Assembly (NCBI GenBank): GCA_964016885.1
Contig: OZ024743.1
Location: 261,640,001-261,704,000 of the forward strand
From: Eledone cirrhosa
Taxonomy: Eukaryota
Direction of reading: 5' to 3'
Length of the DNA stretch: 64,000 bases
Shown here: piece by piece, positions 3,290 through 59,680 of the stretch
Numbering within the stretch: the stretch's first letter is position 1
Layout of the letters: the number at the start of each line of letters is the position of its first letter
Translations under genes and position numbers: made by a program
Notes under the pieces: generated by a model
Databases searched by the model: none
Told to the model about the DNA's origin: nothing
The model's input: the letters and a program-made list of their open reading frames with translations, nothing else

Positions 3290-3800
3290 ATTGGTTAATG
3301 TAACCAGATAGATGGAGCCATTATTCATCCATAAGGAAGTTGACATACAACGCATTAGCAGTTTCCTCTTTGATAAAACAGTTAAACTATTGTCAGTAAT
3401 GTAGTTTCTTTTCAGAAATAGTCGCTTTCAGTTCTTATATTGCCAATACTTTATATGGAGAGATCTTTAATTCTATTCTCACTGCTTCATGAACAGTTGC
3501 AAGACTAATGCTTTGTTGTTGCACTAACTTTCATAATGATTTTAAAACACTAAGCTGCATGTAGTCAGAAATATTCAATTAGTTTTGATAGTCTTTGACA
3601 ACGTTCATCATGTTTAAGCAAAATTGGTTCCATGGAATTTACAAGGTTATGAATGGTATTGTAGTGTGGAAAGGTTGTAGCTGGAAATTTATCATCAAAT
3701 TGCTGTTGCATTAAATCTGTGGAGTGATCCATTTTTTTGAAACATGTATTCAATAAGGAGGACATGTTCTTCAACTGTGAAAACTGTCTTCACAACAGTG
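3290..3800 (-). pseudogene. Ancient Tc1/mariner-superfamily transposase remnant (DUF4817-type HTH)
   Basis: Manual minus-strand translation: QQQFDDKFP..NTIHNLVN, SISLATVHEAVRIELKISPYKV, FLMDE*WLHLSGYINQ (resembles FSDEAWFHLSGYVN); several stops. Confidence 0.55.
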
Positions 3801-4016: not shown

Positions 4017-5290
4017 GTCTAACAAAGTTCTTTCGTTGCACATCTGCAACATCATCAGTGGTACTATTATGTTCCGCCTGTTGTATTGTATATTTACGCC
4101 ATTTTTATTTCATCTGTTTATTTATTTATTTTTGTCTTCTTCTCTGTGTATAGTGTTTGGTGTGTGTTCGCGTTTGGGTGACTGTGTTTTGGTTATTGTA
4201 TTCTATCTTAGTTTACTAGTGTGTGTTTATATGTGTTTGTTGTTATTGTGCTTGTGTATATATTTATTTATTTATTTATATTTCTCTGAAGTCAGTATTG
4301 TTTGTTTGGGTATTGTTGTTATTCCATTCATATCTTTGGCCTTCTAAGCTCTATTTCGCTTGCCTCTCTGATTTGCCTATCTGCTGGGTCATTTCTCTGT
4401 TTAGATATTATTTTAATTTCTATGTTGTCTATGTTACCGTCATGTTTGGTGTGTTCGTATAGTACTGAACTATTTTTTCGTCCTTTTAATTCCCCCCCCA
4501 GTGTTGGTCTATCCGTTCTCCTATGCTTCGAGCTGTCTCGCCTATGTATGTCGTTGTCATGTTTCTGCAAGTACCCTCTGTACATCTTATGCTATAGACT
4601 ACATTTCTAGTTTTACAGTTTATCATAACACATTTCCTATTAGTACGGTGGGTTTTCTTAAAAGGGTATGTTTTGCTGATCAGGGATTTTATGGTAGTTC
4701 CTGGCTTTTCTACCACTTTAATCTTTAAGTGGGTCTTTCTCAGGGCCTTTCTACACTAGTTAGCTAATTTCCTTTCAGGGGTAGTGTCCACAAACATGAC
4801 ACTCTGGTTGTCGTACCATGAGGTGGCTTTCCCTATCTTATGTCTAGCCCTATCTAAGCTATTCCATGATTTGTTCCTGTATAATGGGCAAATTCCTTTC
4901 ATGTCCAGTTCTATGAGGGTCTTATACTTTTCCATGGCTCCTTCGTATACTCTGATTCTGTCTCTTTGGTTGTAGCCAGAGAACTGCATGCGGTTGATGA
5001 AGTGTTGGATGTGTCTTTCCATTTCTGTTGGGTCGCACATGCGGGACACGTTCTTCATCACTTGTACCAAGTCTGCGATCAGAATATTAAACTTAGCACT
5101 ACTGGATATTGCTGGGTTTTTGAGTATCAGGTATTTGGCGGCCATGGGTGTAGTGTGAGTGGAGAATTTGGGCCCTCTCGTCTATAGTGTTAATACAGAG
5201 TTCCGTGTCTAATACAGGTAGTTTACTGTTAGGGTGTTTGGAAGGGTAGTCGATAGTTAGTTATACTCTGGTTGATTATTAAAATTGCAT
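4017..5290 (-). mobile_element. Penelope-like element fragment (RT C-terminus + GIY-YIG endonuclease, frameshifted), tentatively Naiad-like
   Basis: ORFs 4756-5145 (RMQFSGY, MFVDTTP) and 4486-4716 (CKTRNVVYSIRC..YIGETARSIGERIDQH, GIY-YIG motif); 3' end abuts TA run. Confidence 0.8.
4031..4058 (-). ncRNA. Hammerhead ribozyme core (partial) at PLE 3' end
   Basis: Minus strand CTGATGA-t-GTTGCA-gatg-TGCAAC-GAAA: both catalytic boxes flanking a perfect 6-bp stem II; stems I/III not completed before the TA repeat. Confidence 0.6.
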
Positions 5291-9850: not shown

Positions 9851-10003
9851 ATTTAGAGGATGATGATGGTTGTAAGTGTGTGATATTGGCTCCATCATAG
9901 ATATATAAGCTGTACGCCATTGTGGCCCTTAAAAGATATTTTTAGAGAGTTAGTATATATATATATATATATATAGTTATGTAATAAACAACATAAGATA
10001 ATT

Positions 10004-10062
10004 ATTTCATTTACCAGTGGTTTCTTGAAGACAGATATTTATGTCTTCATTCATCAGAAAAA
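10004..10062 (-). ncRNA. Minimal type I hammerhead ribozyme (inverted copy)
   Basis: Reverse complement TTTCTGATGA-aTGAAGACA-taaatatc-TGTCTTCAa-GAAACCACTGGTA-AATGAAAT. Confidence 0.7.
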
Positions 10063-10064
10063 TC

Positions 10065-10127
10065 TTTTTTTCTGATGAATGAAGACAGACATAATATCTG
10101 TCTTCAAGAAACCACTGGTAAATGAAA
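10065..10127 (+). ncRNA. Minimal type I hammerhead ribozyme
   Basis: CTGATGA 10072-10078; stem II TGAAGACAGA/TCTGTCTTCA; GAAA 10108-10111; palindromic stem III ACCA-C-TGGT; GUA site ending 10120; stem I weak (T-run vs AATGAAA). Confidence 0.75.
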
Positions 10128-10220
10128 TAATTATCTTATGTTGTTTATTACATAACTAAAAAGCTCTGTGGCCTACATAGAGCACTCTCTTTTCCTTTAC
10201 TTTTCCTACGGAAATACTTC

Positions 10221-10271
<51 letters not shown>

Positions 10272-12858: not shown

Positions 12859-12931
12859 GGTCAGGTAGCTCAGTCGGTAGAGCAGCGGACCGGCAATCCG
12901 AAGGTCGTGGGTTCGATTCCCACCCTGATTA
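12859..12931 (+). tRNA. tRNA-like gene/pseudogene, anticodon GGC on a tRNA-Lys-like scaffold
   Basis: Full 73-nt cloverleaf: GGTCAGG/CCTGATT acceptor (2 G-U), GCTC/GAGC D arm, CGGA/TCCG anticodon stem, loop CCGGCAA, GTGGG/CCCAC T arm with TTCGATT; TTTT just downstream; C33 and G27-A43 are atypical. Confidence 0.65.
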
Positions 12932-13040
12932 CTTTTCCTATCTGCACTTCTTCCTATTCATTATTATTTATTTAACTTATTTGTTGATAAATATTTTTAA
13001 TATTAATATAATATCCTTGCATTGCCTGGAAAAAAAGTGG

Positions 13041-14227
13041 ATTACAGGGAAAAATGCGGGCGCATGTAAAGAAATATTCTTAAATTAATAAACCTAGAAA
13101 AGTAAAGGACAAGTTATTACACCTGGAAAAGTAAAGGACAAGAAAACTTCTTAAAATATTGCAGGTAAAGTCTAAATTTAAAAAAAAATATTTAGATTAT
13201 AAAACTAAAAATAAATAATTATAAGTTAATTGTTAAAAAAATATCACTTTAAAGGACTGGAAAAATGACTGTCTTATAGGGAGAGTTGACTACTGTATAC
13301 TTAATTTTTTTCTTGGTGTATACAAATTAATCTTTTTAAAATAAAATTTGTACAATAATTTGTACAATAATTAATTAATAATAATAATAATAATTAATAT
13401 GTACAATTTATTAATTTATGTTATAAGATATTTAAAAATTTTCACTCTTAATCAAATTATATTTTAAAAAATTTAGTTATAAAATAATGCAGTAAAATAA
13501 ATCAAAAACAGTGCATCATATAATTGCACTTTTTATGAGTATTACAGATTTTTTTTTATAATATAGTAAAATTCAACATCTCAAGGGGCAAAATTAGGTA
13601 AAAGTCAATTCATCAATTATTCATTTATAGTGAATCAATCAATTATAGTGAATTCATCAATTCATTAGATGAACTGTTGAATTAGACAATGTTTAATTTT
13701 TAATTGTAGTCTAATTTTACTCTACCTAAAAATGTAGATTGGTTATTTTGATCTCTGACAGGTCTTAAATTTCATTATTAAACAATTATAATTTGTTATT
13801 ATTTATCATTACAGTTGGCTCCCTAATTAATTATTAATTAATTGTTCGTGTCATTTACACGCCAAAATTTTGTTTTATTTGATGTTTATAATTGTCACTC
13901 ATTTTTTCAGTCCCATTTAGTAAAGTAAAATAAAGTATATTTATTTAATGACCCAACGACTATGGTGTAAATTAGGATCACAAAATTAAATAAATGATCA
14001 TAAATTAGTATTATTATCAATTAGTCAACAGTATTATTAGAATTTATCACTTTCTATGTATATTTAAATCAAATATTTTTTATTATTCAAATTAATACTA
14101 TAGCTGCAATATTTTAAGAAGTTTTCTTGTCCTTTACTTTTCCAGGTGTAATAACTTGTCCTTTACTTTTCTAGGTTTATTAATTTAAGAATATTTCTTT
14201 ACATGCGCCCGCATTTTCCCCTGTAAT
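13041..14227. mobile_element. Non-autonomous long-TIR (foldback/MITE-like) element with very AT-rich interior
   Basis: ~124-bp near-perfect inverted repeats 13041-13164 / 14104-14227, each with two direct copies of GAAAAGTAAAGGACAAG; ends TA-CAGGG...CCCTG-TA. Confidence 0.8.
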
Positions 14228-15800
14228 ATATATATGTATATATGTGTGTGTGTGTGTGTATATATATATGTGTGTGTGTATATATATATATGTATATGTG
14301 TGTGTGTGTGTGTATATATGTATGTGTGTGTATATGTGTGTGTGTATATGTGTGTGTATATATATATATGTATGTGTGTGTGTATATATGTATATGTGTG
14401 TGTATATATATATATATGTATATGTGTGTGTGTATATATGTATATGTGTGTGTGTATATATGTATATGTGTGTGTGTATATATGTATATGTGTGTGTGTA
14501 TATATGTATATGTGTGTGTGTATATATGTATATGTGTGTGTGTATATATGTATATGTGTGTGTATATATATGTATGTGTGTGTGTATATATATGTATGTG
14601 TGTGTGTATATATATGTATGTGTGTGTGTATATATATGTATGTGTGTGTGTATATATATATGTATGTGTGTGTATATATATATATGTATGTGTGTGTATA
14701 TATATATATGTATGTGTGTGTATATATATATATGTATGTGTGTGTATATATATATATGTATGTGTGTGTGTATATATATATATGTACGTGTGTGTGTATA
14801 TATATATGTATGTGTGTGTGTATATATATATGTATGTGTGTGTGTATATATATATATGTATGTGTGTGTGTATATATATATATGTATGTGTGTGTATATA
14901 TATATATGTATGTGTGTGTATATATATATATGTATGTGTGTGTGTATATATATATGTGTGTGTGTGTGTATATAGATATGTGTGTGTGTGTATATAGATA
15001 TGTGCGTGTGTGTATATAGATATGTGTGTGTGTGTGTATATAGATATGTGTATGTGTGTGTATATAGATATATGTATGTGTGTGTATATAGATATATGTA
15101 TGTGTGTGTATATAGATATATGTATGTGTGTGCATATAGATATATGTATGTGTGTGCATATAGATATATGTATGTGTGTGCATATATATATATATGTATG
15201 TGTGTGCATATATATATATATGTATATGTGTGTGCATATATATATATATCTGTGTGTGCATATATATATATATGTGTGTGTGCATATATATATATATCTG
15301 TGTGTGCATATATATATATATGTGTGTGTGCATATATATATATATGTATATGTGTGTGTGCATATATATATATATGTATATGTGTGTGTGCATATATATA
15401 TATATGTATATGTGTGTGTGCATATATATATATGTGTATATGTGTGTGTATATATATATATATGTGTATATGTGTGTGTATATATATATATATATGTATA
15501 TGTGTGTGTATATATATATATATATATGTATATGTGTGTGTATATATATATATATATATGTATATGTGTGTGTATATATATATATATATATGTATATGTG
15601 TGTGTATATATATATATATATATGTATATGTGTGTGTATATATATATATATATATGTATATGTGTGTGTATATATATATATATATATATGTATATGTGTG
15701 TGTATATATATATATATATATATGTATATGTGTGTGTATATATATATATATATATATGTATATGTGTGTGTATATATATATATATAGGTATATGTGTGTA
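14228..15800. repeat. ~1.6-kb compound (TA)/(TG) microsatellite
   Basis: Direct reading; unit variants change progressively along the array. Confidence 0.95.
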
Positions 15801-19784: not shown

Positions 19785-19824
<40 letters not shown>

Positions 19825-19907
19825 ATATGTATATATGTGTGTATATGTATATGTATATATGTGTGTATATGTATATATGTGTGTGTATATATGTGTGTAT
19901 ATATGTG

Positions 19908-19968
<61 letters not shown>

Positions 19969-21279
19969 ATGTGTATATATATGTGTATATATATATATAT
20001 ATATATGTGTATATATATATGTGTATATATATATACATATATATGTGTATATATATATACATATATATGTGTATATATATATATATATATGTGTGTATAT
20101 ATATATATATATGTGTATATATATATATATGTGTATATATATATATGTATATATATGTGTATATGTATATATATGTGTATATATGTATATATATGTGTAT
20201 ATATGTATATATATGTGTATATATGTATATATATGTGTATATATGTATATATATGTGTATATATGTATATATATGTGTATATATATATATATATATGTGT
20301 GTATATATATATATATGTGTATATATATATATGTATGTGTATATATATATATATATATGTGTGTATATATATATATATGTGTATATATATATATGTATGT
20401 GTATATATATATATGTATATATATGTGTATATATATATATGTGTATATATATATATGTGTATATATATATATGTATATATATGTGTATATGTATATATAT
20501 GTGTGTATATGTATATATATGTGTGTATATGTATATATATGTGTATATATGTATATATATGTGTATATATATATATATATATGTGTATATATATGTGTAT
20601 ATATATATATATATATGTGTATATATATATATATGTATATATATGTGTATATATATATATATGTGTATATATGTATATATATGTGTATGTATATATATGT
20701 GTATATGTGTATATATATATATATGTATATATATATGTGTATATATGTATATATATATGTGTATATATGTATATATATATGTGTATATATGTATATATTT
20801 GTATATATATATATATATATGTGTATGTATATATATATGTATATATATTTGTATATATATATATATATATGTGTATGTATATATATATGTATATATATTT
20901 GTATATATGTATATGTATATATATTTGTATGTATATATATATGTATATATATTTGTATATATGTATATGTATATATATTTGTATATATATATATGTATAT
21001 ATATGTGTATGTATATATATGTGTATATATATATATGTATATATGTGTATGTATATATATGTATATATATGTGTATGTATATATAAATATATATATATAT
21101 ATGTGATATATGTGTATGTGTGTATATATATGTGTATGTATATATATATATATATATGTGATATATGTGTATGTGTGTATATATATGTGTATGTATATAT
21201 ATATATATATATATGTGATATATGTGTATGTGTATATATATATATATATATGTGTATATATGTGTATATATGTGTATAT

Positions 21280-21345
<66 letters not shown>

Positions 21346-22245
21346 ATGTGTATATATATATATGTGTATATATATATATGTGTATATGTATATATATGTA
21401 TATATATGTGTATATATATATATGTATATATATATATATGTATATATATGTGTATATATATATATGTGTATATATATATATGTGTATATATATATATGTG
21501 TATATATGTGTATATATATATATGTGTATATATATATATATGTATATATATGTGTATATATATATATGTGTATATATATATATGTGTATATATATATATA
21601 TGTATATATATGTGTATATATATATATGTGTATATATATATGTGTATATATATATGTGTATATATATATGTGTATATATATATGTATATGTATATATATA
21701 TGTATATATATGTGTATATATGTATATATATGTGTATATATATATATATATGTGTATATATATGTGTGTATATATATATATGTGTATATATATATATGTA
21801 TATATATATATGTGTATATATATATATGTGTATATATATATATGTATATATATATATATGTATATATATATATGTATATATATATATGTATATATATATA
21901 TGTGTATATGTATATATATGTGTATAAGTATATATATGTGTATATGTATATATATGTGTATATGTGTATATGTATATATATGTGTATATGTATATATATG
22001 TGTATATGTATATATATGTGTATATGTATATATATGTGTATATGTGTATATGTATATATATGTGTATATGTATATATATGTGTATATGTATATATATGTG
22101 TATATATATGTGTATATGTATATATATGTGTATATATATGTGTATATGTATATATATGTGTATATATGTGTATATGTATATATATGTGTATATGTATATA
22201 TATGTGTATATGTATATATATGTATATATATGTGTATATGTATAT
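19785..22245. repeat. ~2.5-kb compound (TA)/(TG) microsatellite
   Basis: Direct reading. Confidence 0.95.
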
Positions 22246-24880
22246 ATCATCATCATCATCATCATCAACGTTTAACGTCCGTGTTCCACGCTTGCATGGG
22301 TTTGGACGGGGGTAGTCCCACTTGAGGCAAGAGTGATTGTCTTGCTCGCATAGGACTGTCTGGCAGGTTTTCTACAGTTGGATGCCCTTCGTAACACCAA
22401 CCACATTTACAGTGTGGGTCTGGGAGGTTTTTACCGTGTTGCCTACACGGCCACATTACAGCGTGGACTGTGTGTTTTTTTTGTCGTGACACCTACACGA
22501 TCTCATTTGTTTCGGCCTCGATGGCGCGGCACCAACATAACTTTACATAGAACGGGGTGGTGTGGATGGGGTGGGGGTGGTGGTGGTGGGACGGGGTGTA
22601 TTTTGTTAGAGATGCCTACTGGCTGGAGTAGGTTTTACTATATATTTAGGTAAGGCGGGTCTTCTCTGTTACTGAGTACCGCCAAAGGTCTCGGTCCAGT
22701 GACATTGTCTTGGAGAGGTGTAAGTGTGTGATGTCGGAGTTTATCAGCTCGTCCCAGGTTTTTCTAGGTCTGCCTATTCCGTGACTACCGTCTATCTTTA
22801 TTGCCCTGCACTTTGTTATACAGCTATCGACTTTCATGCGCATCACGTGTCCATACCAACGTAGCCTTCTCTCGAGTAAACAACATCTGATCCCTCTTAT
22901 CTCTAATTTTTTCCTTAGTTCGTTTATGCTTTGCCGTTCACGTATATTACTGTTACACATCCAGCGGAGCATGCAAGCTTCGTTCCTCTCTAGTCTGCGT
23001 ATATCCTCTGCACACAATGCCCAGGTCTCACTGCCATGCAGCATTGCTGTTCGTATGCAGGCATCGTACAACCTGCCTTTCATTTTTAGTGAGAACCCTT
23101 TAGCAGCTAATAGTGGTATAAGCTCTCTGAACTTTTTCCAACCAGTTCTGACTCTAGCTACAGTACTTTCAGAACACCCTCCCCCACTGCTGATTTTATC
23201 GCCCAGGTAACGGAAGCTGTCCACTATTTCTATAGAACCTTCTGCGCAATTGAAAGAGCTAGTAGTTTGTGGGCACTTGCTGCTACTTATTGCACCAGAG
23301 CACCGGCCACATGTAAAATCTATGTTCTTAGTTAGCTTACCTGTGATCCCACTACATCTTTTATGCACCCATACTTTGCATTTAGGACATAAAATGGAGT
23401 TTCTACCTACGCCTTTCCTACACACCGAGCACGACCATTTCCCAGAAGGGACCGCCGCCTTGTTTTCTTTCCTACAAACTAGTACTTTGGTCTTAGCCAG
23501 GTTAATTTTAAGTCCTTTTGACTCTAGGCCGTGCTTCCATGTTTGGAATTTCTTCTCTAGCTCGGCCATTGATTCCGCTATGAGTGTCAGGTCGTCTGCG
23601 TATAGGAGTTCCCATGGGCAGCCTGTCTTGAACTCCTCTGTTATAGCCTGAAGGGCAATAATAAATAGTAGTGGGCTGAGAACAGAGCCCTGATGGACGC
23701 CAACTTTTACGCTAAACTCTTCACTATATTCGTTGTTAATTCTAACCTTGCTGACTGTTTCTTTATACATGGCTTGTATAGCCCTCACAAGCCATTCGTC
23801 AACGCCTAGTTTTCTAAGAGCCCACCAGATAATGGTGCGGGGGACTCTGTCGAAGGCTTTCTCCAAGTCGACAAAAGCTAAGTAGAGGGGTTTACCTTTA
23901 GCTAGGTACTTCTCCTGTAGTTGTCGTACTATGAAAAGAGCGTCTGTGGTACTTTTGCCTGACACAAACCCGAACTGCATTTCATCTAGGTCAATTCTCT
24001 CTCTGATTAGTTGCGCTATTACTTTTTCCGTGACCTTCATGACCTGGTCGATTAATTTAATGCCTCTATAATTACTCCTATCTAGGGCGTCTCCTTTACC
24101 CTTATAACAGTTAACGATGATGCTGCTATGCCAGTCCTTCGGAACAACCCCATTCTGTACGACTTGGTTAACTATGCGGGTGACCATGGTGTGTCCCACC
24201 GTGCCAGATGCCTTCAGCATCTCAGCAACTATTTCCGAAGGCCCAGCCGCCTTACCCGTCTTCATATCCTTGATTGCCTTACTTATTATACTCCCCTCGA
24301 CTAACACTGCTGGTCCCTCTATTGGGTCGATATGGGGGAGACTGCCTTTCTCCCAATTATTCTCCTCATTTAGTAGCCTTTCATAGTGACACTTCCAAGC
24401 TACCTTCTTATCAGCGTCGGTGATGGCAAGTGTGCCATCGTCGTTTAGTACACACTTCTCCCCGACAATATCACGGTTTTCCTTGACGCATTGCCTAGCA
24501 ATCCTGAACACCTCACGTTTTTGGTCATCGCGTTGTAGAACATGCTTGAACTTTCTTTCCTCAGCTTCCCTTCTTGCTAAGTACACTTGTCTCCTAGCTT
24601 CCCTCCTGGCCACTTGATAGTCCTCTCTACTTCCCCCATCCCGCCATACTTTCCAAGCCTGCTTTTTGGCCTTAATTGACCCCTCCACCTTACTGTTCCA
24701 CCACCATGTTACTCTCCTCCTGCCTCCAGGCCTGCTCCAGCCACAGACTTCGTCTGTCGCCAACAGCAGGTTTGCTTTCAGAAATTCCCACTCTCCCTCT
24801 ATATTGTCCGACTCTAAATGTTCTTCCTTACTGTCGAAAGCATCAAGTAATATGTTTTGAAATTTATTTTTGGCTGTGGG
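22246..24880 (-). mobile_element. Longest RTE LINE copy, subfamily A, 5'-truncated (no endonuclease domain)
   Basis: Uninterrupted frame through RT and C-terminus; (CAT)n tail at 22246. Confidence 0.95.
22646..24763 (-). CDS. RTE-clade reverse transcriptase with inserted PHD-like C4HC3 finger (truncated TE ORF)
   Basis: 705 aa: [37 protein letters not shown]; CSVC..CPKC..H..C..CGRC. Confidence 0.85.
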
Positions 24881-25920
24881 TATGTATATGTATATGTATG
24901 TATGTATATGTATGTATATATATGTATGTATATGTATGTATATATATATATGTATGTATGTATATATATATATGTATGTATGTATATATATATATGTATG
25001 TATATGTATGTATATATATATATGTATGTATATGTATGTATATATATATATGTATGTATATGTATGTATATATATATATGTATGTATATGTATGTATATA
25101 TATATATGTATGTATATGTATGTATATATATATATGTATGTATATGTATGTATATGTATGTATATGTATGTATATGTATGTATATGTATGTATATATATA
25201 TATGTATGTGTATGTATATGTATATATATGTATGTGTATGTATATGTATATATATGTATATATATATGTATATGTATGTATATGTATATGTATGTATATG
25301 TATGTATATATATATATGTATATGTATGTATATGTATGTATATATATATATGTATATGTATGTATATGTATGTATATATATATATATGTATATGTATGTA
25401 TATGTATGTATATATATATGTATGTATGTATGTATATATGTGTATGTATGTATGTATATATGTGTATGTATGTATGTATATATGTATGTATATGTATGTA
25501 TATATGTATATGTATATGTATGTATATGTATATATATATATGTATATGTATGTATATATATATATGTATATGTATGTATATATATATATGTATATGTATG
25601 TATGTATATATATGTATATGTATGTATATGTATGTATATATATATATGTATATGTATGTATATGTATGTATATATATATATGTATATGTATGTATATGTA
25701 TGTATATATATATATATATGTGTATGTATGTATATGTATGTATATATATATATATGTATATGTATGTATATGTATGTATATATATATATATGTATATGTA
25801 TGTATATGTATGTATATATATATATATGTATATGTATGTATATGTATGTATATATATGTATATGTATATATATGTATATGTATATATATGTATATGTATG
25901 TATATATATATATATGTATA

Positions 25921-25953
<33 letters not shown>

Positions 25954-27536
25954 GTATATGTATGTATATTATATGTATGTATATGTATATTATATGTATA
26001 TATATGTATATTATATGTATATATATGTATATATATGTATATTATATCTATATATATGTATATGTATATATATGTATATGTATATATATGTATATATATG
26101 TATATGTATATATATGTATATGTATATATATGTATATGTATATATATGTATATATATGTATATGTATATATATGTATATGTATAGATATGTATATGTATA
26201 GATATGTATATGTATATATATGTATATGTATGTATATGTATATGTATGTATATGTATATATATGTATATGTATATATATGTATATATATATATGTATATG
26301 TATATATATGTATATATATGTATATGTATATATATGTATATATATATATGTATATGTATATATATGTATATATATATATGTATATATATATATGTATATG
26401 TATATATATGTATATATATATATGTATATGTATGTATATGTATGTATATGTATATATATGTATATATATATATGTATATATATGTATATATATATATGTA
26501 TATGTATGCATATATATGTATTTGTATATGTTTATGTATGTGTATGTATATGTTTATATATGTATATATGTATATATGTATATGTATATATATATATGTA
26601 TATAGATGTATATGCATATATATGTATATATGTATATATATATGTATATATATGTATATGCATATATATGTATATGTATATGCATGTATATGTATATGCA
26701 TATATATGTATATGTATATGCATATATATGTATATGCATATATATGTATATGTATATATATGTATATGTATATATATGTATATGCATATATATGTATATG
26801 TATATATATGTATATGCATATATATGTATATGTATATATATGTATATGCATATATATGTATATGCATATATATGTATATGCATATATATGTATATGTATA
26901 TATATGTATATGCATATATATGTATATGCATATATATGTATATGTATATATATGTATATGTATATGTGTATATATATGTATATGTATATGTGTATATATA
27001 TGCATATGTATATGTGTATATATATGTATATATAGATATATATACATATATATACATATATTTTTTTGATATGTATATATACATATATATACATATATTT
27101 AAAAATATATATATATATGTATATATATGTATATATATGTATATATATGAATGTATATGTATATAAATAGCATGTATATGTATATATATGTATATGTATA
27201 TGTCTGCATATATATGTATATGCATATGCATATATATGCATATGCATATATATGCATATGTGTATATATGTATATGCATATGTGTATATATGTATATGCA
27301 TATATATGTATATGTATATGCATATATATGTATATATATGTATGTATATGCATATAGATGTATATGCATATAGATGTATATGCATATATATGTATATGTA
27401 TGTATATGTCTTCATATGTATATATATGTATATGTATGTATATATATGTATGTATATGTATGTATATATATGTATGTATATGTATGTATATATATGTATG
27501 TATATGTATGTATATATATGTATGTATATGCACATG

Positions 27537-27569
<33 letters not shown>

Positions 27570-29022
27570 GCATATGTATATATATGTATGTATATGTATA
27601 TATATGTATGTATATGCATATATATGTATGTATGTATATGCATATATATGTATGTATATGCATATGCATATATATGTATGTATATGTATATGTATATATA
27701 TGTATATACATATATATATATATATGTATATACATATATATATATATATGTATATACATATATATATATATATGTATATACATATATATATGTATATGTA
27801 TATACATATATATGTATATATCTGTATATGCATATATATGTATATATATGTATATACATATATATGTATATATATGTATATATATATATATGTATATATA
27901 TGTATATACATATATATGTATATATGTGTATATACATATATGTGTATATACATATATATGTGTATGTGTATATACATATGTATATATATCCATATGCATA
28001 TATATGCATATGTGTATGTATATGCATATATGTATATGCATATATGTGTATGTATATATATGTATATATATATATATGTATATGCATATTTATGTATATG
28101 CATATTTATGTATATATATATATATGTATATTTATGTATATGCATATATATGTATATTTATGTATATGCATATATATGTGTATTCATGTATATGTGTATT
28201 TATGTATATGTGTATATATGCATATTTATGTATATGTATATATATATATATATGTGTATTTATGTATATGTATATATATGTGTATTTAAGTATATGTATA
28301 TATGTGTATTTATGTATATGTATATATGTGTATTTATGTATATGTATACATATGTGTATTTAAGTATATGTATATATGTGTATTTAAGTATATGTATATA
28401 TGTGTATTTATGTATATGTATATATGTGTATTTATGTATATGTATATATATGTGTATTTATGTATATGTATATATATGTGTATTTATGTATATGTATATA
28501 GATGTGTATTTATGTATATGTATGTCTATTTATGTATATGTGTATTTATGTATATGTATATATGTGTATTTATGTATATCTATATATATGTGTATTTATG
28601 TATATCTATATATATGTGTATTTATGTATATCTATATATATGTGTATTTATGTATATGTATATATGTGTATTTATGTATATGTATATTTATATATATGTA
28701 TATATGTATATTTATATATATGTATATATATGTATATGTATATATTTATGTATATATGTATATTTATGTATATATGTATATTTATGTGTATATGTATATT
28801 TATGTATATTTATGTGTATATGTATATTTATGTATATTTATGTGTATATGTATATTTATGTATGTATATTTATGTATGTATATTTATGTATATGTATATT
28901 TATGTATATGTATATTTATGTATATTTATATATATGTATATTTATGTATATGTATATTTATGTATATGTATATTTATGTATATGTATATGTTTATATATG
29001 TATGTATATATATATATGTATA
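24881..29022. repeat. ~4.1-kb compound microsatellite (TATG/TA/TGCA/TATT blocks)
   Basis: Direct reading; successive blocks dominated by different variants. Confidence 0.95.
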
Positions 29023-29560: not shown

Positions 29561-30812
29561 GTGTGCGGGCGAAATTTGTTCGCAAGATTACTGTCTAGGA
29601 AAAAACAACACAGTAGTTTTATTTTTTAAGATATATTTATCAAACTTGGGTCAGTTTGTCTTCATGACTTGTTCTTTCGAGCTCACTCGATAAACCCGCC
29701 ATTGGCTTTGATGACGGCCTCAAGGAAGCCTCGGAACCGGCTACAGTCCTTTGTCACTGTCCCCTGACTTAGGCCCCTAAAGGCACTTGTGATCCTGGCC
29801 TTCAGATCGTCTTTCGTATTGCAGCTAGATCTGTTGATGTCTCGTTCCACTGCGCCCCACACAAAGAAGTTGAAGGGGTTGCAGTCAGGAGAGCTGGGAG
29901 GCCAGATGTCAGGTGAAGTGTGGTCGACGAAGTTCTCTGACAGCCAGGCTTGGGTCTTTCGGCTGGTATGGCAGGGTGCTGAATCTTGCTGCCACACGTA
30001 CGGCCTACCTGCAGCTACCTGGTCGATCCAGGGCTTTACTACCTCGCTCAGAACGCGGATGTAGCCATCGGTGTTCAGCTTGAGGCCCAATGTTGTCGCT
30101 GGAAACTTTGTCTGCATGACTCTGGGCACGTCTTTGGATGAGACAGCGAGCCACCTGTTGTTCTGGGAGTTGATCTTCTGGTCTTGGCAGAAGTTTTTCT
30201 CGTCGGAGAAAAACCACAGCATGCCTGGCTCCAGTGGGTGTTTCAACTTGTTGATCAGCTTCTTTGTGTGCTTCAGTCGCTTTTCTTGCATCGCCTTTGA
30301 CAGAAATTCTTTCCTCATCTTGTATGAAACATAGCGAATGTCTTCATGTACCACCAACCTAATGAGCTTTTCATCCACGTCTTTCTCCCTTGCAATGGCA
30401 CTTTCTCCATTGCATCGACTTGCTAGGTTCATTGTTGATGATATCCTGAACTTCAGCGAAGAACACGGGCGTTCTGAAGGCGTCAGATCGTCGATCATGT
30501 GTTTTCCTCTCTGGTGTTGCTTTGTAGTCGAATCCTGAATCTTCCAATTCCTTTCTGACCTTTTCCACCATTCTCCTGCTGACCCTGAGAAAGTCTGAAA
30601 TTTCCTTATTTGTCCTCTCGGTGCGGATTCCAAGAAGAACTCTGTGTCTCTTCCACAAATTTGGAGGTTCAAAATTATTCATAATCAATTATTCTTAAAA
30701 TAAATAATGGAAATATAGTCACTGCTCTTATGAAGACAAGAGTGACAATGGAAGTAAAAAAAATTTGCATAAAATTAGCAGTTGAAAATTGCGAACAAAT
30801 ATCGTGCACACC

Positions 30813-30815
<3 letters not shown>
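29561..30815 (-). mobile_element. Tc1/mariner DD37D (maT-type) DNA transposon, defective
   Basis: WFFSDEKNF, VWQQDSAPCH, WPPSSPDCNPF(N/D): 37 residues between 2nd and 3rd catalytic positions; TIR CAGGGTGTGCACGATATTTGTTCGCAA with TA at 30816; other TIR clipped. Confidence 0.9.
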
Positions 30816-30853
<38 letters not shown>

Positions 30854-31340: not shown

Positions 31341-33554
31341 CGAAGGAAATGTGGTAAGGAACCAGGTGGACCATAACGCACCAAAGTACTCAATACTTGA
31401 GGTAGTAGAGTGGGTAATAGGAACCAGTAAGACCCCCGCCGATCAAACCATCCTAGGAACATCACAAACAACCTGGTCAAAAACATCTCCCTCCGCATAT
31501 CCCGTTTGTCAGCTAATGAGCGGATATTCGATGAACATGCGCCTTATTACAACCAGGCCCTCAAGCGGAGTGGTTTCCGGGAGGAAATATCCTACTGTCC
31601 AGCTCCCATTAGCGGAACCAGCAGGAGACACCGCCGCTCACGCAATGTAACATGGTTCAATCCTCCCCACAACGCAGAGGTGACAACTCCCATCGGGAAA
31701 CTATTCTTTAGGCTCATTGAAAAACACTTCCCATTACAACACCGCTACCACAACATAATTAACAAAAATACCATCAAACTCTCTTACAGCACTACACCAA
31801 ACTTCGCACAAAACATCGTCTCCTCTAACAACAAAAAACTCAACCCCGATGGCAGAATTAACCTAAATAGCAGTGGAGAACCGACCAGGAGGTGTAACTG
31901 CCCGGATAGATCTATTTGCCCACTCGACAATAGATGCAGAGACCGTAATGTGATCTACCAGTGCAACGTGAGGACGGATACCTCCAACAAAGCCTATATA
32001 GGACTTACCGCATGTGACTTCAAGACCCGGCTATACCAACATAGACATACCTTCCGAAACCCGGCCCGGCGTCACGCCACTACACTTTCGGGCCACATAT
32101 GGGACCTCAAGGACAACAACATCACCTATGATCTCACTTGGAGATTACTGTCCAGAGCCAATTCTTACACGGGAGGACGCCGTCCGTGCAATTTATGCTC
32201 GGAGGAAACTTTACAAATGCTGTTTTCGACGGACCAACTCCTAAACAAGAAAGATGAACTGGTCACTGCATGTAAACATAGATTGCGTAAGACTTACCTC
32301 GCCCTCAAACCCCATAATGACCCGGGGGGGTAGACTAGGGCTATAACACCCCACTTGCCGATTTTGCAATGGGTAACCCCTGCTTGCCAAGGAAGACGTA
32401 AGATCTTCTTTGTATTCTTTTATCGCTTCCTTTATTTCCTCCCCCCCCCTCTCCTTAGTCCTTCTACCCCAGCTCTTCTCCTTTGTCGGCGTCTTTTCTC
32501 GCCCACCCGAGGCTGCCCTTTGGCCCCATGTAGCCTTAGTACCCCCACCACCCCTTCCCCTAGTCTATGATAGATTTGGCGGACTCCGCCCTTTATAGCA
32601 GTTGGCTTAGACCCCGGATACTTGCCCCCCTTTTTCCGACCGCTCCCACTATCCTCTGTGCCCTCTATATTTCTTAGTGGCACTTATGCCTTATTTTTTC
32701 GTTTCAGTATTTCTTGCTTCGCTTTTCTTCTGGGCGGGGTGGATTCTGAATTTATTTCTCCGTATTCTACCTTTATTTCGTACGAACTTTCATGTAGCTT
32801 GTTTTAGATCTTTTAGAGTTAGCATTAGTATATATTTTTCTCGGGACTCAGAATTATTATCTCATACAAGTTCACTTTGCTGCACTGGGTCGTTGCTGGC
32901 CCGGGATGGAAACCTTTATTGTTTATTTCGTGGTAGTCTCTTTAGTATTTTGGCCCCTTTTGTTGACCCGTCACCGTATCATTTACGTACTTATACCTCT
33001 TAAAAGGGTCCTTGCCTAATCCGTCCCACCTAGTTCTTTTACTTATTTCGTTATTTCTTTATTTCTTTATTTCTTTCTTTACTTCTTTCTTTCTTTCTTT
33101 ATTTTATTCTAGCCTAACAATAGCCTGAGACCTAGGTCGTAGAATTTAATTTACTTTACTTTTTTCTTTACACTTATTTGCTTTTCTTCACTCTCAGTAT
33201 TTTTTCTTTCCTATATATATTTTTCTACCCCCCATTGTTCTACCTACCGTTCCGACTTCCTCCCCCTCCCCTGTATCTTCTTTGACCTCATGCCCAGCTG
33301 TAGCTGGCACTACCAACGCTTGATTGGGTCTACTCCACCCCCTCCCCTCTTTCCCCTACTGGCAGGTTTAGCCACCATCTCCCCTACTAATTTGCAACCA
33401 CAGAATCACTACTGATTTTTGACAATCACTTTGACCATATATGGAATTACCCCTTGAGAAGATCGGCTATTTAAATACCAGGATAAATTTTCATTTAGTC
33501 CAGAATTAGCCGTCGAAACGGCTTGAGCTCAGCTGTCGGGGTCTTACTGGTTCC

Positions 33555-34237: not shown

Positions 34238-36732
34238 AACAAAGGAATTGTGGTAAGGAACCAAATGGACCATAATGCACCAGAGTACTCAATACTTAGC
34301 ATAGTAGAGTGGGAAATAAGAAAAAAGTATGGCAGAGCTCAAGCCGTTTCGACGGCTATTTCTGGACAAAATTAGAATTTTTAGCCTGGTGAATAAATAG
34401 CCGAACTTTTCAAGGGGGGTACTTCCTTATATGGTCAGATTGTAGTTGTCAAGAGGATTGATTAAAATTTGTTGTAAACACAAATAAGTCTATCATTTGG
34501 TGGGGGGTAGGGGTGGCTGAACTTGCCTGTAGAACAATAGGGGAGTGAGTGGAGCGGTCAAGCGTTGAAAGTGATATGTATACATCAGATTCTAAGGATA
34601 GTGTATGAAGTGGGGGAGGGAGGTAATCGAAAGAGAGTAGGAGACAATAAAAGATACTAGAAATAAATTAAAAAAAAAAAAAAAAAAAAAAATTAGATAG
34701 TGAGAAAGGAATAAAGAAATCACAATGCTATCTTACAATTACAGGTTAATAAGTTGAGAATAGAAAAAACTTATAGAAATTACAAAACAGATACAAACTT
34801 AAAAGGGTTTTTAACACATCTGCTATAAGTAGTTAGAATTGGCCGAATACGTTTTACTATCTTAAAATAACAGGGGTGGGGGAACTGATGCTACAAGGCC
34901 CGATGGGCTGCATCGGGGTAGGCAAAAGGGGAAAGCAGACGAGGAAGAAAATAGGGGGTGGAAGGAAGTGATAGGATGAGACAGGGGGAAGAAGGAGACA
35001 AAGAGGAAAAGAAGAGGGATACATTTATCTATGTAAGCTGGAGTTTCCCCTAACTTATTCGGCAAGTGTGTGTGTGGGGTGTATCAGCCCTTGTCTACCC
35101 ACCCGGGTCGTTATAGGGTTTGAGGGCGAGGTAAGTCCTACGCAATCTGTGTTTGCATGCGGTTACCAGTTCATCTTTCTTGTTTATGAGTTGGTCCTTT
35201 GAAAACAGCATTTGTAATGTTTCTTCCGAGCATAAGTTACATGGACGGCGTGCTCCGGTGTAAGAGTTAGCCCTGGACAGTAAGCTCCAAGTGAGATTGT
35301 AGGTTATATTGTTATCTTGGAGGTCCCAGATGTGGCCAAACGTGTAGTGGCATGTCGCCGAACCGGGTTTCGGAAAGTGTGTCGGTGTTGGTAGAGCCGG
35401 GTCTTGAAGTCACATACGGTTAATCCTATATAAGCTTTGTTGGAAGTGTCCGTCCTCACGTTGCACTGGTAGATCACGTTACGTTCTCGGCATTTGTTGT
35501 TGAGGGGGGCACGTAGATCTATCAGGGCAGTTACACCTCCTGGTTGGCTCTCCACTGATGTCTAGGTTATTTCTTCCATAGGGGTTGAGTTTTTTGTTGT
35601 TTGAGGAGACAATGTTTTGTACGAAGTTAGGTGTGGTGCTGTAGGAGAGTTTGATGGTGTTTTTGTTGATTATGTTGTGGTAGCGGTGTTGTAGTGGGAA
35701 ATGTTTTTCGAGGAGTCTAAAGAAGATTTTCCCCAATAGGTGTTGCCACCTTGGCATTGTGGGGAGGATTGAACCACGTTACGTTGCGTGAGCGGCGGTG
35801 TCGCCTGCTGGTTCCGCTAAGGGAAGCTGGATACAAGGATATTTTCTACTATTTAAACTCACCGAAATGTTTCCTGCATTCGGCGGTGGATTATACCGGG
35901 ATGATGGGCTCCTCACCCTCAAAGGGTACAACCCCAGTAGTACAGACCGGGTCTGTAAACAACTAATCAACTTCTTCCGGGACTGGGGATTTAAAATCAC
36001 CCTAACCCGAGTTAATTTCCTGGACGTTACTCTTAACCTCGAAAATGATCTGTACTACTCATACAGGAAACCAAACGACAACATGCACTACATCCACCGC
36101 CGCTCTAACCATCCTAGAAACATCACCAATAACCTGGTTAAAAACATCTCCCTCCTTATATCTTGTTTGTCCGCTAATGAGCAGATATTCGACGAACACG
36201 CGCCTCATTACAACCAGGCCCTTAAGCGGAGTGGCTTCCGGGAGGAAATATCCTTTTATCCAGCTTCCCTTAGCGGAACCAACTTATTAACCTGTAATTG
36301 TAAGATAGCATTGTGATTTCTTTATTCATTTCTCACTATCTAATTTTTTTAATTTTTTTATTTCTTTCTAGTATCTTTTATTGTCTCCTACTCTCTTTCG
36401 ATTTACCTATTCTATAACCTCCCTCCATCACTTCATACACTATTCTTAGAATCTGATGTATACATATCACTTTCAACGCTTGACCGCTCCACTCACTCCC
36501 CTATTGTTCTACAGGCAAGTTCAGCCACCCCTACCTCCCACCAAATGCCATGATAAACTTATTTGTGTTTACAACAAATTTTAACCAATCCTCTTGACAA
36601 CTACAATCTTCCCATATAAGGAAGTACGCCCTTGAAAAGTTTGGCTATTTATTCACCAGGCTAAACATTCTAATTTAGTCCAGAAATAGCCGTTGAAATG
36701 GCTTGAGCTCTGCCGTCAGGGTCATACTTTTT

Positions 36733-36737
<5 letters not shown>
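34238..36737. mobile_element. Rearranged inverted Penelope-like element, same lineage as 31339-33557
   Basis: Minus: tail, HHR, 3' UTR and GIY-YIG ORF to ~35845; plus: RT segment (LYRDDGL, VNFLDVTL, SNHP) ~35846-36281 jumping to the 3' UTR and HHR; inverted arms ~34320-34755 / ~36281-36737. Confidence 0.88.
36627..36722 (+). ncRNA. Degenerate hammerhead ribozyme (U3-A8 variant)
   Basis: TTGAAAA 36632-36638, GGCTATTT/AAATAGCC stem II, GAAA 36695-36698, GTC 36715-36717; stem I imperfect. Confidence 0.65.
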
Positions 36738-36797
<60 letters not shown>

Positions 36798-36801
<4 letters not shown>

Positions 36802-37067
36802 GAAGTAATTCCGTCGGAAAGGTCCAGGAAAAAAGAGTGCTCTATGTAGGTTACAGAGCTTATTAGTTATGTAATAAACAACATAGGATAATTATTTCAT
36901 TTATCAGTGGTTTCTTGAAAGCAAACAAATTTGCTTTCAGTCATCAGAATGAAAAAATCCTGGTGTATTTATTGAAAGTGGATTTGAGATGACTGAAAGC
37001 AAATTTGTTTGCTTTCAAGAAACCACTGGTAAATGAAATAATTATCTTATGTTGTTTATTACATAAC

Positions 37068-37071
<4 letters not shown>
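36798..37071. mobile_element. Second copy of the HHR hairpin element (opposite orientation)
   Basis: Tail 36798-36861, arms 36862-36945 / 36988-37071, in (TA)n; homologous to 9974-10224. Confidence 0.85.
36895..36954 (-). ncRNA. Minimal type I hammerhead ribozyme
   Basis: Minus strand TTTCATT-CTGATGA-cTGAAAGCAAA-tttg-TTTGCTTTCAa-GAAACCACTGATA-AATGAAA: perfect 7-bp stem I, 10-bp stem II; one stem III mutation. Confidence 0.78.
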
Positions 37072-37108
<37 letters not shown>

Positions 37109-57780: not shown

Positions 57781-57911
57781 AGTATATATATATATATATA
57801 TTTGCACACACAAATACAGACACATATATATGTAATTGGTGGTATCATATATGTTTATATATGTCTTCATATACACTTCTGTGTGTGTATATGTATATAT
57901 ATTTATATATA

Positions 57912-58785
57912 CAGGGTGCGGACGATATTTGTTTGCAAGATTACTGTCTAGGAAAAAATAACACAGTAGTTTTTTATTTTTTAAGATATATTTATCAAAC
58001 TTGGGTCAGTTTGTCTTCATGACTTGTTCTTTCGATCTCACTCGATAAACCCGCCATTGGCTTTGATGATCGCCTCAAGGCGTCCTTGGCACCGGCTACA
58101 GGCCTTCGTCACTGTCCCCCGACTTAGGCACTCGTGATCCTGGCCTTCAGATCGTCTTTCGTATTGCAGCTAGATCTGTTGATGTCTCGTTCCACTGCGC
58201 GCCACACAAAGAAGTCGAAGGGGTTGCAGTCAGGCGAGCTGGGAGGCCAGATGTCAGGTAAAGTGTGGTCGATGAAGTTCTGACAGCCAGGCTTCGGTCT
58301 TTCGGCTGGTATGGCAGGGCGCTGAGTCTTGCTGTCACACGTACAGCCTACCTGCAGCTACCTGGTTGATCCAGGGCTTTACTACCTCGCTCAGAACGTG
58401 GATGTAACCATCGGTGTTCAGCTTGAGGCCCTCAGGGAAGAAGTGAGGTGGCATGACGTCACCCTGACTGCTGACGACACCTAAGACCAATGTTGTCGCT
58501 GGAAACTTTGTCTGCATGACCCTGGGCACGTCTTTGGATGAGACACCATTCTCCTGCTGACACTGAGAAAGTCTGAAATTTCCTTATTTGTCCTCCCGGT
58601 GTGGATTCCAAGAAGAACTCCGTGTGTGTCTCTTCCACAAATTTGGAGGTTCAAAATTATTCATATTCTGAAAATAAATAATGAAAATATAGTCGTTTTT
58701 ATGAAGATAAGAGTGACAACGGAAGTAAAAAAATTTGCATAAAGTTAGCAGTTGAAAATTGCGGACAAATATTGTCCTCACCCTG
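57912..58785 (-). mobile_element. Internally deleted DD37D (maT-type) transposon with both TIRs
   Basis: TA-CAGGGTGCGGACGATATTTG ... CAAATATTGTCCTCACCCTG-TA; close match to 29561-30815; deletion junction ~58545. Confidence 0.9.
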
Positions 58786-58789
58786 TATA

Positions 58790-59070
58790 TGATCGCACCG
58801 GATGGGATCAAACCGGTCTGGACTAGATTGGATCATATCAAACCGGATCAGATTGCGATTAGGCTGGATTGGATTGCTCTAAACCAGATCAGATCAGACT
58901 GGATCAGATTTGATGCATCGGATCAGCTTGGACTGGAACAAAATGGTTCGGATTGAATCAAAATGGGTCAGGTCAGATCAGACACCATATTGAGCTGGTC
59001 AGATTGGATTGGATAGATAAATATGTCCATTCTGATGCAATCCAATTTGATCTGATCCAGCCCAGTCTGA
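58790..59070. repeat. Degenerate pentamer repeat (GATCA/GATTG)n with an inverted distal part
   Basis: Direct reading. Confidence 0.7.
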
Positions 59071-59476: not shown

Positions 59477-59680
59477 ATATTTATTAAAATAACAGATTAA
59501 AGTTTAAGCAAAGAATCGCTGCTTTCACCCTTAATCCCGTTAAGGGTGAAAGCAGCGATTCTTTGCTTAAACTTTAATCTGTTATTTTAATAAATATTTG
59601 CTCGACGGTTCTTATATATTTGATATATATTTATCCTTATCGAGCCCTCTTTGGATTTTAGTCTTCAAATTTATTATTAT

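What the first reader, a model, noticed from the sequence alone, without database searches (positions are those of the whole stretch)
9974..10224. Small non-coding hairpin element carrying hammerhead ribozymes on both strands (second copy 36798-37071)
Seen: a ~250-bp insertion in (TA)n made of two inverted arms and a tail. Each arm here contains CUGAUGA-stemII-GAAA-ACCA/UGGU-A-AAUGAAA (in copy 2 one arm lacks the first CU). Stem II differs between the two loci (TGAAGACAGA/TCTGTCTTCA vs TGAAAGCAAA/TTTGCTTTCA) yet stays paired while the catalytic boxes are constant, which is covariation. Established: minimal type I HHRs with palindromic stem III occur in Penelope-like elements and in non-autonomous retrozymes, and can cleave as dimers. 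Inference: a PLE-mobilised, protein-free ribozyme element that integrates as a foldback, so transcription from either strand gives a self-cleaving and dsRNA-forming RNA. No coding parent for this family is present in the window.
Basis: partly seen in the sequence, partly recalled or inferred. Interest (0 to 1): 0.85.

Follow-up and report, generated by a model that had tools for sequence, protein, structure and literature searches.

The report
Folded-back ends of a Penelope retrotransposon
This hairpin is two clipped, head-to-head copies of the end of a common Penelope-type jumping gene whose protein-coding form lies elsewhere in the same genome, so it is likely ordinary transposon debris, and its self-cutting RNA motif is predicted to be locked inside the hairpin.

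Summary
The hairpins and hammerhead boxes are real, but they are not a stand-alone element. A 28-mer of the arm occurs 2710 times in the genome. Arm plus tail reads straight into a ~710-aa RT/GIY-YIG frame with the Hydra-clade Penelope motifs; 21 of 150 scored ORF matches have uninterrupted full-length frames. Foldbacks range from 24 bp to kilobases between arms, and most junctions differ. Among 50 foldbacks, 47 have one tailed and one tail-less end and none has two tails. This fits the two internal RT start sites shown in vitro for an anole Penelope. Stem II covariation is real and only N7 of CUGANGA varies, so the ribozyme is likely under selection in the parent. In the foldback transcript its stem II has pairing probability ~0, and neither arm of copy 2 is intact. 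Opposite-strand hammerhead pairs from truncated PLEs and an octopus Hydra family are published. The scan noted the same two-ended footprint on other families of this genome. Side lead: type-B arms pile up at one 5' end, often with an extra G, a possible capped transcription start.

The parts
9954..9975 (.). (TA)n target, left of copy 1
   Evidence: sequence
9974..10063 (-). Copy 1 inverted tail-less arm: 5'-truncated pLTR, subfamily A. CUGAUGA 10057-10051, stem II shortened by a 4-nt deletion, predicted cut between 10012 and 10011
10065..10158 (+). Copy 1 direct arm: 5'-truncated pLTR with hammerhead (CUGAUGA 10072-78, stem II 10080-89/10097-106, GAAA 10108-11, palindromic stem III 10111-19, predicted cut after 10120); ends at the proximal end site
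   Evidence: 96.8% to ORF-linked L102 and 93.7% (with tail) to L109
10159..10224 (+). Copy 1 tail (~65 nt): start of the parent's 5' leader; in tandem copies it continues 115 nt to the ATG
10224..10267 (.). (TA)n target, right of copy 1
36735..36798 (.). (TA)n target, left of copy 2
36798..36863 (-). Copy 2 tail
36864..36987 (-). Copy 2 tailed arm, subfamily B. Full 7-bp stem I, CUGAUGA 36947-36941, stem III broken by G-to-A at 36904; 5' end near the 75-79 nt end cluster
   Evidence: 96.8% to the pLTR in front of the L172 ORF
36988..37069 (+). Copy 2 tail-less arm, truncated inside the CUGAUGA box
37072..37105 (.). (TA)n target, right of copy 2

Best explanation
Each hairpin is two 5'-truncated copies of the hammerhead-bearing end (pLTR) of a Hydra-clade Penelope-like retrotransposon, joined head to head in a (TA)n tract, likely made afresh at each insertion and likely dead on arrival. 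Shown: the parent layout (pLTR with hammerhead, tail, 115-nt leader, ~710-aa RT/GIY-YIG ORF, long low-complexity 3' UTR, pLTR), two fixed end sites about 65 nt apart, one end of each kind per insertion, and mostly unique junctions. Inferred: the RT-endonuclease, probably a dimer, cuts both strands at (TA)n and primes a cDNA from each side of the break, one from the proximal and one from the distal internal start site on the RNA. Both cDNAs stop early and are joined through short self-complementary stretches (the parent's TTTTAAAA and AATATT runs, stem II, stem III). The hammerhead is predicted to work, if at all, as a dimer or with protein help in the parent's tandem transcript; in the foldback RNA it is predicted to be trapped in the long duplex.
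For: Parent: L061/L102 has GIY-YIG end, 1.6-kb UTR and a copy-1-type arm. L109 runs inverted tail-less copy ... tail, leader, ORF, UTR, arm plus tail. At least 12 of 30 loci read arm, tail, leader, ORF. L172 has 710 aa from Met with 2 internal stops; 21 of 150 scored matches have open frames of 713-718 aa; 12 fetched full frames are 96.6-100% identical in the 40 pairs printed. Ends: of 209 arms, 92 stop at the proximal site, 77 at the distal site, 16 read through, 24 elsewhere (partly tail-selected sample). One-tail rule: 47 of 50 foldbacks, 3 with none, 0 with two. In tail-blind searches (scored in 33, 47, 54, one locus by eye): 21 of 24, 3 none, 0 both, P=1e-4. Multi-kb insertions L206+L207 and L212 obey it too. 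Spacing between inverted arms is 83-4871 bp in 15 pairs among the first 100 matches. Junctions: 13 different among 15 copy-1-type foldbacks, the window's unique. The two arms of one foldback differ by a median of 3 of 89 nt against 17 between loci. Literature: two adjacent internal RT starts that delimit the tail, both strands cut and extended, predicted dimer (PMC11167929); inverted pLTR with a tail on one side (PMC3846280; PMC8557442).
Against: Some junctions recur at unlinked loci. Copy 2's junction is matched within 3 nt at C390 with other flanks and the tail on the same side. Seven of 32 loci share one perfect palindromic junction. Three copy-1-type loci share one junction, two of them with the same tail side. 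Copy 1 and L024 share a 4-nt deletion in the tail-less arm. These fit hot spots at palindromes present in the parent but do not exclude rare copying of a foldback as a unit. The partner arm is the nearest sequence in only 19 of 36 foldbacks, and 2 pairs mix subfamilies. Twin priming, snap-back and later central deletion are not told apart by these data. No tree was built for clade placement, and Pfam gave no significant hit for 4 ORF pieces.
Confidence: 0.88

Rival explanations
1. One reading: the ~250-bp foldback is an independent non-autonomous element that is transcribed, self-cleaves from either strand and is re-mobilised as a unit by PLE enzymes.
For: Recurrent junctions at a few unlinked loci; a shared 4-nt deletion in copy 1 and L024; short foldbacks are common (13 of the 15 inverted pairs are under 340 bp). 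An earlier scan note (e1-8671701, unchecked) reports RNA-edited foldbacks of another family.
Against: Continuous sizes and mostly unique junctions. Each subfamily's hammerhead also sits on ORF-linked pLTRs. Stem II cannot form at equilibrium. There is one sense hammerhead per strand, so no partner in cis for the dimer. No strand-polarised A-to-G excess in 49 foldbacks; the one outlier was misalignment.
Confidence: 0.06
2. Same parent, different route: one cDNA folds back on itself (snap-back or self-priming) and is extended on itself, with the endonuclease trimming one end to leave the tail; or long inverted insertions later shrink by central deletion.
For: 17 of 47 foldbacks have arms equal within 2 nt and junctions centre on palindromes. 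Self-priming was proposed from junction palindromes in PMC3846280, and endonuclease resolution of the tail in PMC8557442.
Against: Either arm can be the longer one (tailed 21, tail-less 9, equal 17; further cases). Multi-kb inverted copies obey the same end rule. In vitro RT starts at both tail boundaries (PMC11167929).
Confidence: 0.25
3. A MITE-like DNA transposon or a microRNA-type hairpin, with the hammerhead boxes as coincidence.
For: Long inverted arms in TA context; sub-threshold Rfam microRNA hits on the hairpin.
Against: The arms are 5'-truncated copies of a retroelement end linked to an RT ORF. In CUGANGA only N7 varies (U 119, C 31, G 2 of 152; other positions 145-150 of 152), and a third subfamily has G7. 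Stem II has 4 of 10 pairs changed on both sides.
Confidence: 0.01

Closest known systems
Hydra clade of Penelope-like elements, e.g. Hydra-1_Obim and Penelope-13_HM (Craig et al. 2021, PMC8557442; passages, section 11, supplement part 2 and Obim hits read)
   Same: RWK, DKT, CxCX5C linker, CxxC and CxH around the conserved E and N, no cysteines between the GIY and YIG halves, (TA)n target, canonical hammerhead at the 3' end. Hydra-1_Obim has stem III ACCA-A-UGGU against ACCA-C-UGGU here; Penelope-13_HM is listed with an inverted 5'-truncated copy and hammerheads on both strands.
   Different: A separate family: 24 of the first 44 residues identical to Hydra-1_Obim (compared by eye). Unit about 2.7-4.8 kb with a long low-complexity 3' UTR instead of under 3 kb. 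Tail about 65 nt instead of 30-40. At least three subfamilies, one with near-identical intact frames.
Minimal type I hammerheads of metazoan PLEs (Cervera and de la Pena 2014, PMC4209133; parts 1-2 of 4 read)
   Same: Long helix II, unpaired base before it, palindromic helix III, strong covariation between families. The paper reports dual motifs 100-700 bp apart on opposite strands and reads most dispersed motifs as truncated PLEs.
   Different: Helix II is 10 bp and helix I up to 7 bp; for the ORF-linked type-B arm the monomer hammerhead fold is the predicted MFE. Activity is untested here.
PAc/Poseidon of Anolis, in vitro (Frangieh et al. 2024, PMC11167929; parts 1-2 of 4 read)
   Same: Two fixed end sites delimit a tail; AT-rich target; hammerhead upstream of the RT start sites.
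   Different: Other clade. Here both start sites lie in the 5' leader (ATG 220 nt after the predicted cut), not inside the ORF.
Metazoan non-LTR retrozymes (PMC7229834, passages; bioRxiv 10.64898/2026.07.22.740005, part 1 of 5)
   Same: Non-coding, a few hundred bp, type I hammerhead related to PLE pLTRs.
   Different: Retrozymes are head-to-tail tandem repeats with two or more same-strand hammerheads that yield circles. These are head-to-head, variable in length, one sense motif per strand.

Membership tests
Penelope-like elements (EN+) | Single ORF with RT and C-terminal GIY-YIG endonuclease linked to the pLTR | tested here: met
   Arm and tail lead into the ORF at L109, L172-L179 and L205-L216; YRDDG and YVG motifs; 160 homologues of about 700 aa. 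Pfam scan gave no significant hit.
Penelope-like elements (EN+) | Partial tandems (pLTR), inverted 5'-truncated copy, tail at one end | tested here: met
Hydra clade | RWK and DKT motifs, CxCX5C linker, CxxC and CxH, CCHH absent | tested here: met
   RWK 37, DKT 114, CSCRKPDEC 555, CSLC 658, CPH 689 in L205; no Cys between the GIY and YIG halves in the printed sequence; criteria
Hydra clade | (TA)n insertion and canonical hammerhead | tested here: met
Hydra clade | Length generally under 3 kb | tested here: inconclusive
   Arm-to-arm 2.7 kb (L177) to about 4.3 kb (L205, L210) and 4.8 kb (L175); the paper gives this as a tendency
Hydra clade | Placement in an RT phylogeny with reference Hydra proteins | not tested
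   Reference proteins were seen only as text in the supplement; compared by eye over 44 residues
Type I hammerhead ribozyme | CUGANGA, GAAA, UH and three helices with covariation | tested here: met
   Met for the family and copy 1's + arm (stem I weakened); not for either arm of copy 2. Rfam models did not hit.
Type I hammerhead ribozyme | Self-cleavage after H17 | not testable with these tools
   The genomic proxy (truncations at the cut site) was inconclusive
Non-LTR retrozyme | Head-to-tail tandem units with at least two same-strand hammerheads | tested here: not met
   Head-to-head arms; same-strand pairs under 10 kb are 3.4-7.4 kb apart, and one of them (L166/L167) reads into the ORF leader
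Non-LTR retrozyme | Expressed as linear and circular RNA | not testable with these tools
   No RNA data were laid on the locus
Independent non-autonomous element (SINE/MITE-like) | Fixed structure copied as a unit, shared junction across copies | tested here: not met
   13 junctions in 15 loci; arms 24 bp to kilobases apart; a minority recur

The most novel reading that the evidence does not exclude
The family is a genomic record of the Penelope reaction itself. Every insertion is primed from both sides of one (TA)n break, one end always from the proximal and the other from the distal RT start site. The abundant short foldbacks are double run-off copies of the capped 5' end of the element's own mRNA: 22 of 121 type-B arms end 75-79 nt upstream of GAAA, 8 of them with a non-templated G (extra C/G also at many junctions). 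This would map the promoter, both start sites and an obligatory asymmetric dimer in a clade never studied in vitro, with near-identical intact copies available for testing.
Probability: 0.35. Interest if true: 0.5.

Novelty: new member of a known kind. Interest (0 to 1): 0.22.

Why it matters
As an element it is ordinary: inverted, truncated Penelope ends with hammerheads on opposite strands are described (PMC4209133, PMC3846280, PMC8557442). Its value is as a test case. It is a young Hydra-clade family with intact, near-identical ORFs, thousands of ends, a strict one-tail rule and a candidate transcription start. That lets the open questions of how PLEs form inverted insertions, and whether their hammerhead acts in vivo, be tested. 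A count of the one-tail rule for a Hydra family was not found in six literature searches; most subscription papers are outside that library.

Tried and rejected
Rfam: no hammerhead family among the matches listed. A Neptune-type ORF upstream of L021 first looked like the parent; it lies on the opposite strand and has its own, different hammerhead, so it was rejected. Pfam: no significant hit for 4 ORF pieces. Sequencing runs: no RNA holder listed; nothing was laid. In-vivo cleavage proxy: 76 matches that depart from the parent within 2 nt of the predicted cut against 30 at a control position 8 nt upstream. About a third of the 30 inspected were point or slippage variants, the breaks spread over three positions, and the site is also a self-complementary AT-rich spot: inconclusive. 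RNA editing of foldbacks: no polarised A-to-G excess in 49; L015 was misalignment. Bacterial promoter scan on L205: irrelevant to this genome. Inverted-repeat scan of the whole window was swamped by microsatellites. The covariation shuffle test (0 of 500) was run on 17 hand-picked sequences that are related by descent, so it reflects a few lineage events, not 17. One of the 50 foldbacks (L003, 1359 nt) is probably two separate insertions and was left in the count. A look-up of earlier findings by sequence gave one unrelated note.

Full report
Observation. Both hairpins are present as described. Copy 1 has arms 9974-10063 and 10065-10158, a tail 10159-10224 and (TA)n on both sides; copy 2 (36798-37069) is reversed. 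A motif scan for CUGANGA, GAAA and a 3-bp stem III found two sites in the 64 kb, both in copy 1. Copy 2 fails on both arms: one lacks the CU, the other has G-to-A in stem III at 36904. Copy 1's minus arm has a 4-nt deletion in stem II, and its stem I is weak. Rfam's hammerhead models were not among the listed matches.

Copy number and parent. The arm plus tail gave 2882 candidates in the genome, with the other 39 scored copies 95-98% identical; a 28-mer occurs 2710 times against 0 for the control. Many copies continue upstream into a shared low-complexity sequence. Following it led to L061/L102, where a GIY-YIG C-terminus is followed by about 1.6 kb of UTR and a copy-1-type arm. L109 shows the whole layout: an inverted tail-less copy at one (TA)n end, then tail, leader, ORF, UTR, and arm with tail at the other end. 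At least 12 of 30 loci from a leader query read arm, tail, leader, ORF without a break, for both window subtypes. Copy 1 is 93.7% identical to L109's 3' pLTR and copy 2 is 96.8% identical to the pLTR in front of the L172 ORF. L172 encodes 710 aa with two internal stops; its ATG lies 115 nt after the tail. A protein search gave 21 of 150 scored matches with open frames of 713-718 aa. Twelve fetched examples belong to a third, young subfamily (96.6-100% in the 40 pairs printed) that is about 84-93% identical to the window copies. The window itself holds no ORF piece of this family.

Clade. The protein carries RWK, DKT, CxCX5C, CxxC and CxH and has no cysteines between the GIY and YIG halves. These are the features given for the Hydra clade (PMC8557442 section 11). 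Its supplement lists Hydra-1_Obim with a (TA)n target and stem III ACCA-A-UGGU, and Penelope-13_HM with an inverted truncated copy and hammerheads on both strands. By eye 24 of the first 44 residues match Hydra-1_Obim, so this is a separate family. No tree was built, and Pfam gave no significant hit; 160 homologues of about 700 aa were found.

Ribozyme. Of 169 distinct arms, 152 had a parsable box (up to 3 mismatches allowed). Six positions were kept in 145-150 of 152; N7 was U 119, C 31, G 2, and the young subfamily has G7. Variation confined to the one free position, and stem II with 4 of 10 pairs changed on both sides in 17 chosen sequences (95.9% of cells paired), point to selection on the fold in the active parents. 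This is a few lineage events. The stem III palindrome dimerises at -10.2 kcal/mol, and for ORF-linked L172 the monomer hammerhead is the predicted MFE, whereas for copy 1 it is 3.9 kcal/mol above the MFE. In the whole foldback RNA, stem II pairs have probability 0.000 on both strands of copy 1 and the minus strand of copy 2, against 0.81-1.0 in the isolated arm. On either strand the antisense arm is transcribed first. Published PLE minimal hammerheads cleave poorly and not as monomers (PMC4209133), and the anole one needs protein and is not needed for insertion in vitro (PMC11167929).

How the foldbacks arise. Of 209 arms, 92 end at one site and 77 at a second about 65 nt further on; 16 read through and 24 end elsewhere (the sample is partly tail-selected). 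Among 50 foldbacks, 47 have one end of each kind, 3 have no tail and none has two. In tail-blind searches the figures are 21, 3 and 0 of 24 (P=1e-4). Eighteen further short foldbacks with both ends in view all had one tail (by eye), and so do multi-kb insertions. Distances between inverted arms run from 83 to 4871 bp. Junctions are mostly unique: 13 in 15 copy-1-type loci; at the type-B hot spot 7 of 32 loci share a palindrome already present in the parent, 2 share a variant and the other 23 differ (by eye). The arms of one foldback differ by a median of 3 of 89 nt against 17 between loci. This is what the two internal RT start sites, double-strand cutting and predicted dimer of PMC11167929 would leave if each side of the break primes its own cDNA. 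That step is inference; snap-back or later deletion remain open.

Against this reading. Copy 2's junction is nearly repeated at C390 with other flanks. Two copy-1-type loci share junction and tail side. Copy 1 and L024 share a 4-nt deletion at a tandem 4-mer. The partner arm is the nearest sequence in only 19 of 36. Rare copying of a foldback as a unit is therefore not excluded, but no RNA-editing footprint was seen in 49 foldbacks.

Side lead. Type-B arms peak at 75-79 nt upstream of GAAA (22 of 121), 8 with a G that the parent lacks at that place (eight loci, some not foldbacks, after leaving out L098 and L099). An extra 5' G marks copying of an mRNA cap in LINE-1 (PMC11702581, passages). 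This may be the pLTR transcription start, which would explain why short foldbacks of similar size look like a family. It is untested.

Prior knowledge and verdict. Dual minimal hammerheads 100-700 bp apart on opposite strands, read as truncated PLEs, are in PMC4209133. The inverted pLTR with an optional tail on one side is in PMC3846280 (passages), PMC8557442 and PMC8969392 (passages). Retrozymes differ in being same-strand tandems (PMC7229834 passages; bioRxiv 2026.07.22.740005 part 1 of 5; its supplements were not seen). Earlier scan notes describe the same two-ended footprint for other families of this genome; they are unchecked and came after my reading was fixed.

Noticed in passing
L079, L080, L082, L084, L085, L086, L149, L154; junctions: Type-B arms end sharply 75-79 nt upstream of GAAA, often with one non-templated G: candidate capped transcription start inside the pLTR.
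   Followed up: partly
L205-L216: Young subfamily with uninterrupted 714-715-codon frames, near-identical copies, CUGAGGA box and G-U wobble changes in stems I and II; probably recently active.
   Followed up: partly
window 12859-12932 (+): tRNA-Ala-like sequence with GGC anticodon (ARAGORN; Rfam 66.7 bits). That anticodon is unusual for a eukaryote (recalled); perhaps a tRNA-derived repeat head.
   Followed up: no
window about 59479-59595: A second, unrelated near-perfect hairpin beside (TA)n; the same arm sequence occurs in L041 near 3425-3470. Possibly a foldback end of another TA-targeting element.
   Followed up: no
window 31449-32279 (+), 35843-36283 (+), 35167-35736 (-): Divergent fragments (25-44% identity) related to the Hydra-type ORF, the last two head to head: remnants of other PLE families.
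   Followed up: no
window 4331-5260 (-): Fragment 83-88% identical to a Neptune-like RT/endonuclease frame in L106.
   Followed up: no
window 57909-58791 and 29563-30837: Pieces 89-97% identical to a Tc1/mariner-like insertion found inside the 3' UTR of L109.
   Followed up: no
L125, L126, L130, L131: Copies with the same tail-to-tail junction and similar flanks in which the ORF start runs into a long tandem array of a short unit; several unlinked loci, perhaps amplified inside a larger repeat.
   Followed up: no
L004, L041, L228: Other hammerhead-bearing PLE ends with different stems nested in the same (TA)n tracts; these tracts collect several PLE families.
   Followed up: no
window 14226-15786, 19790-22247, 24880-29022: Kilobase-long TA/TG microsatellite arrays with strong GC skew.
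   Followed up: no
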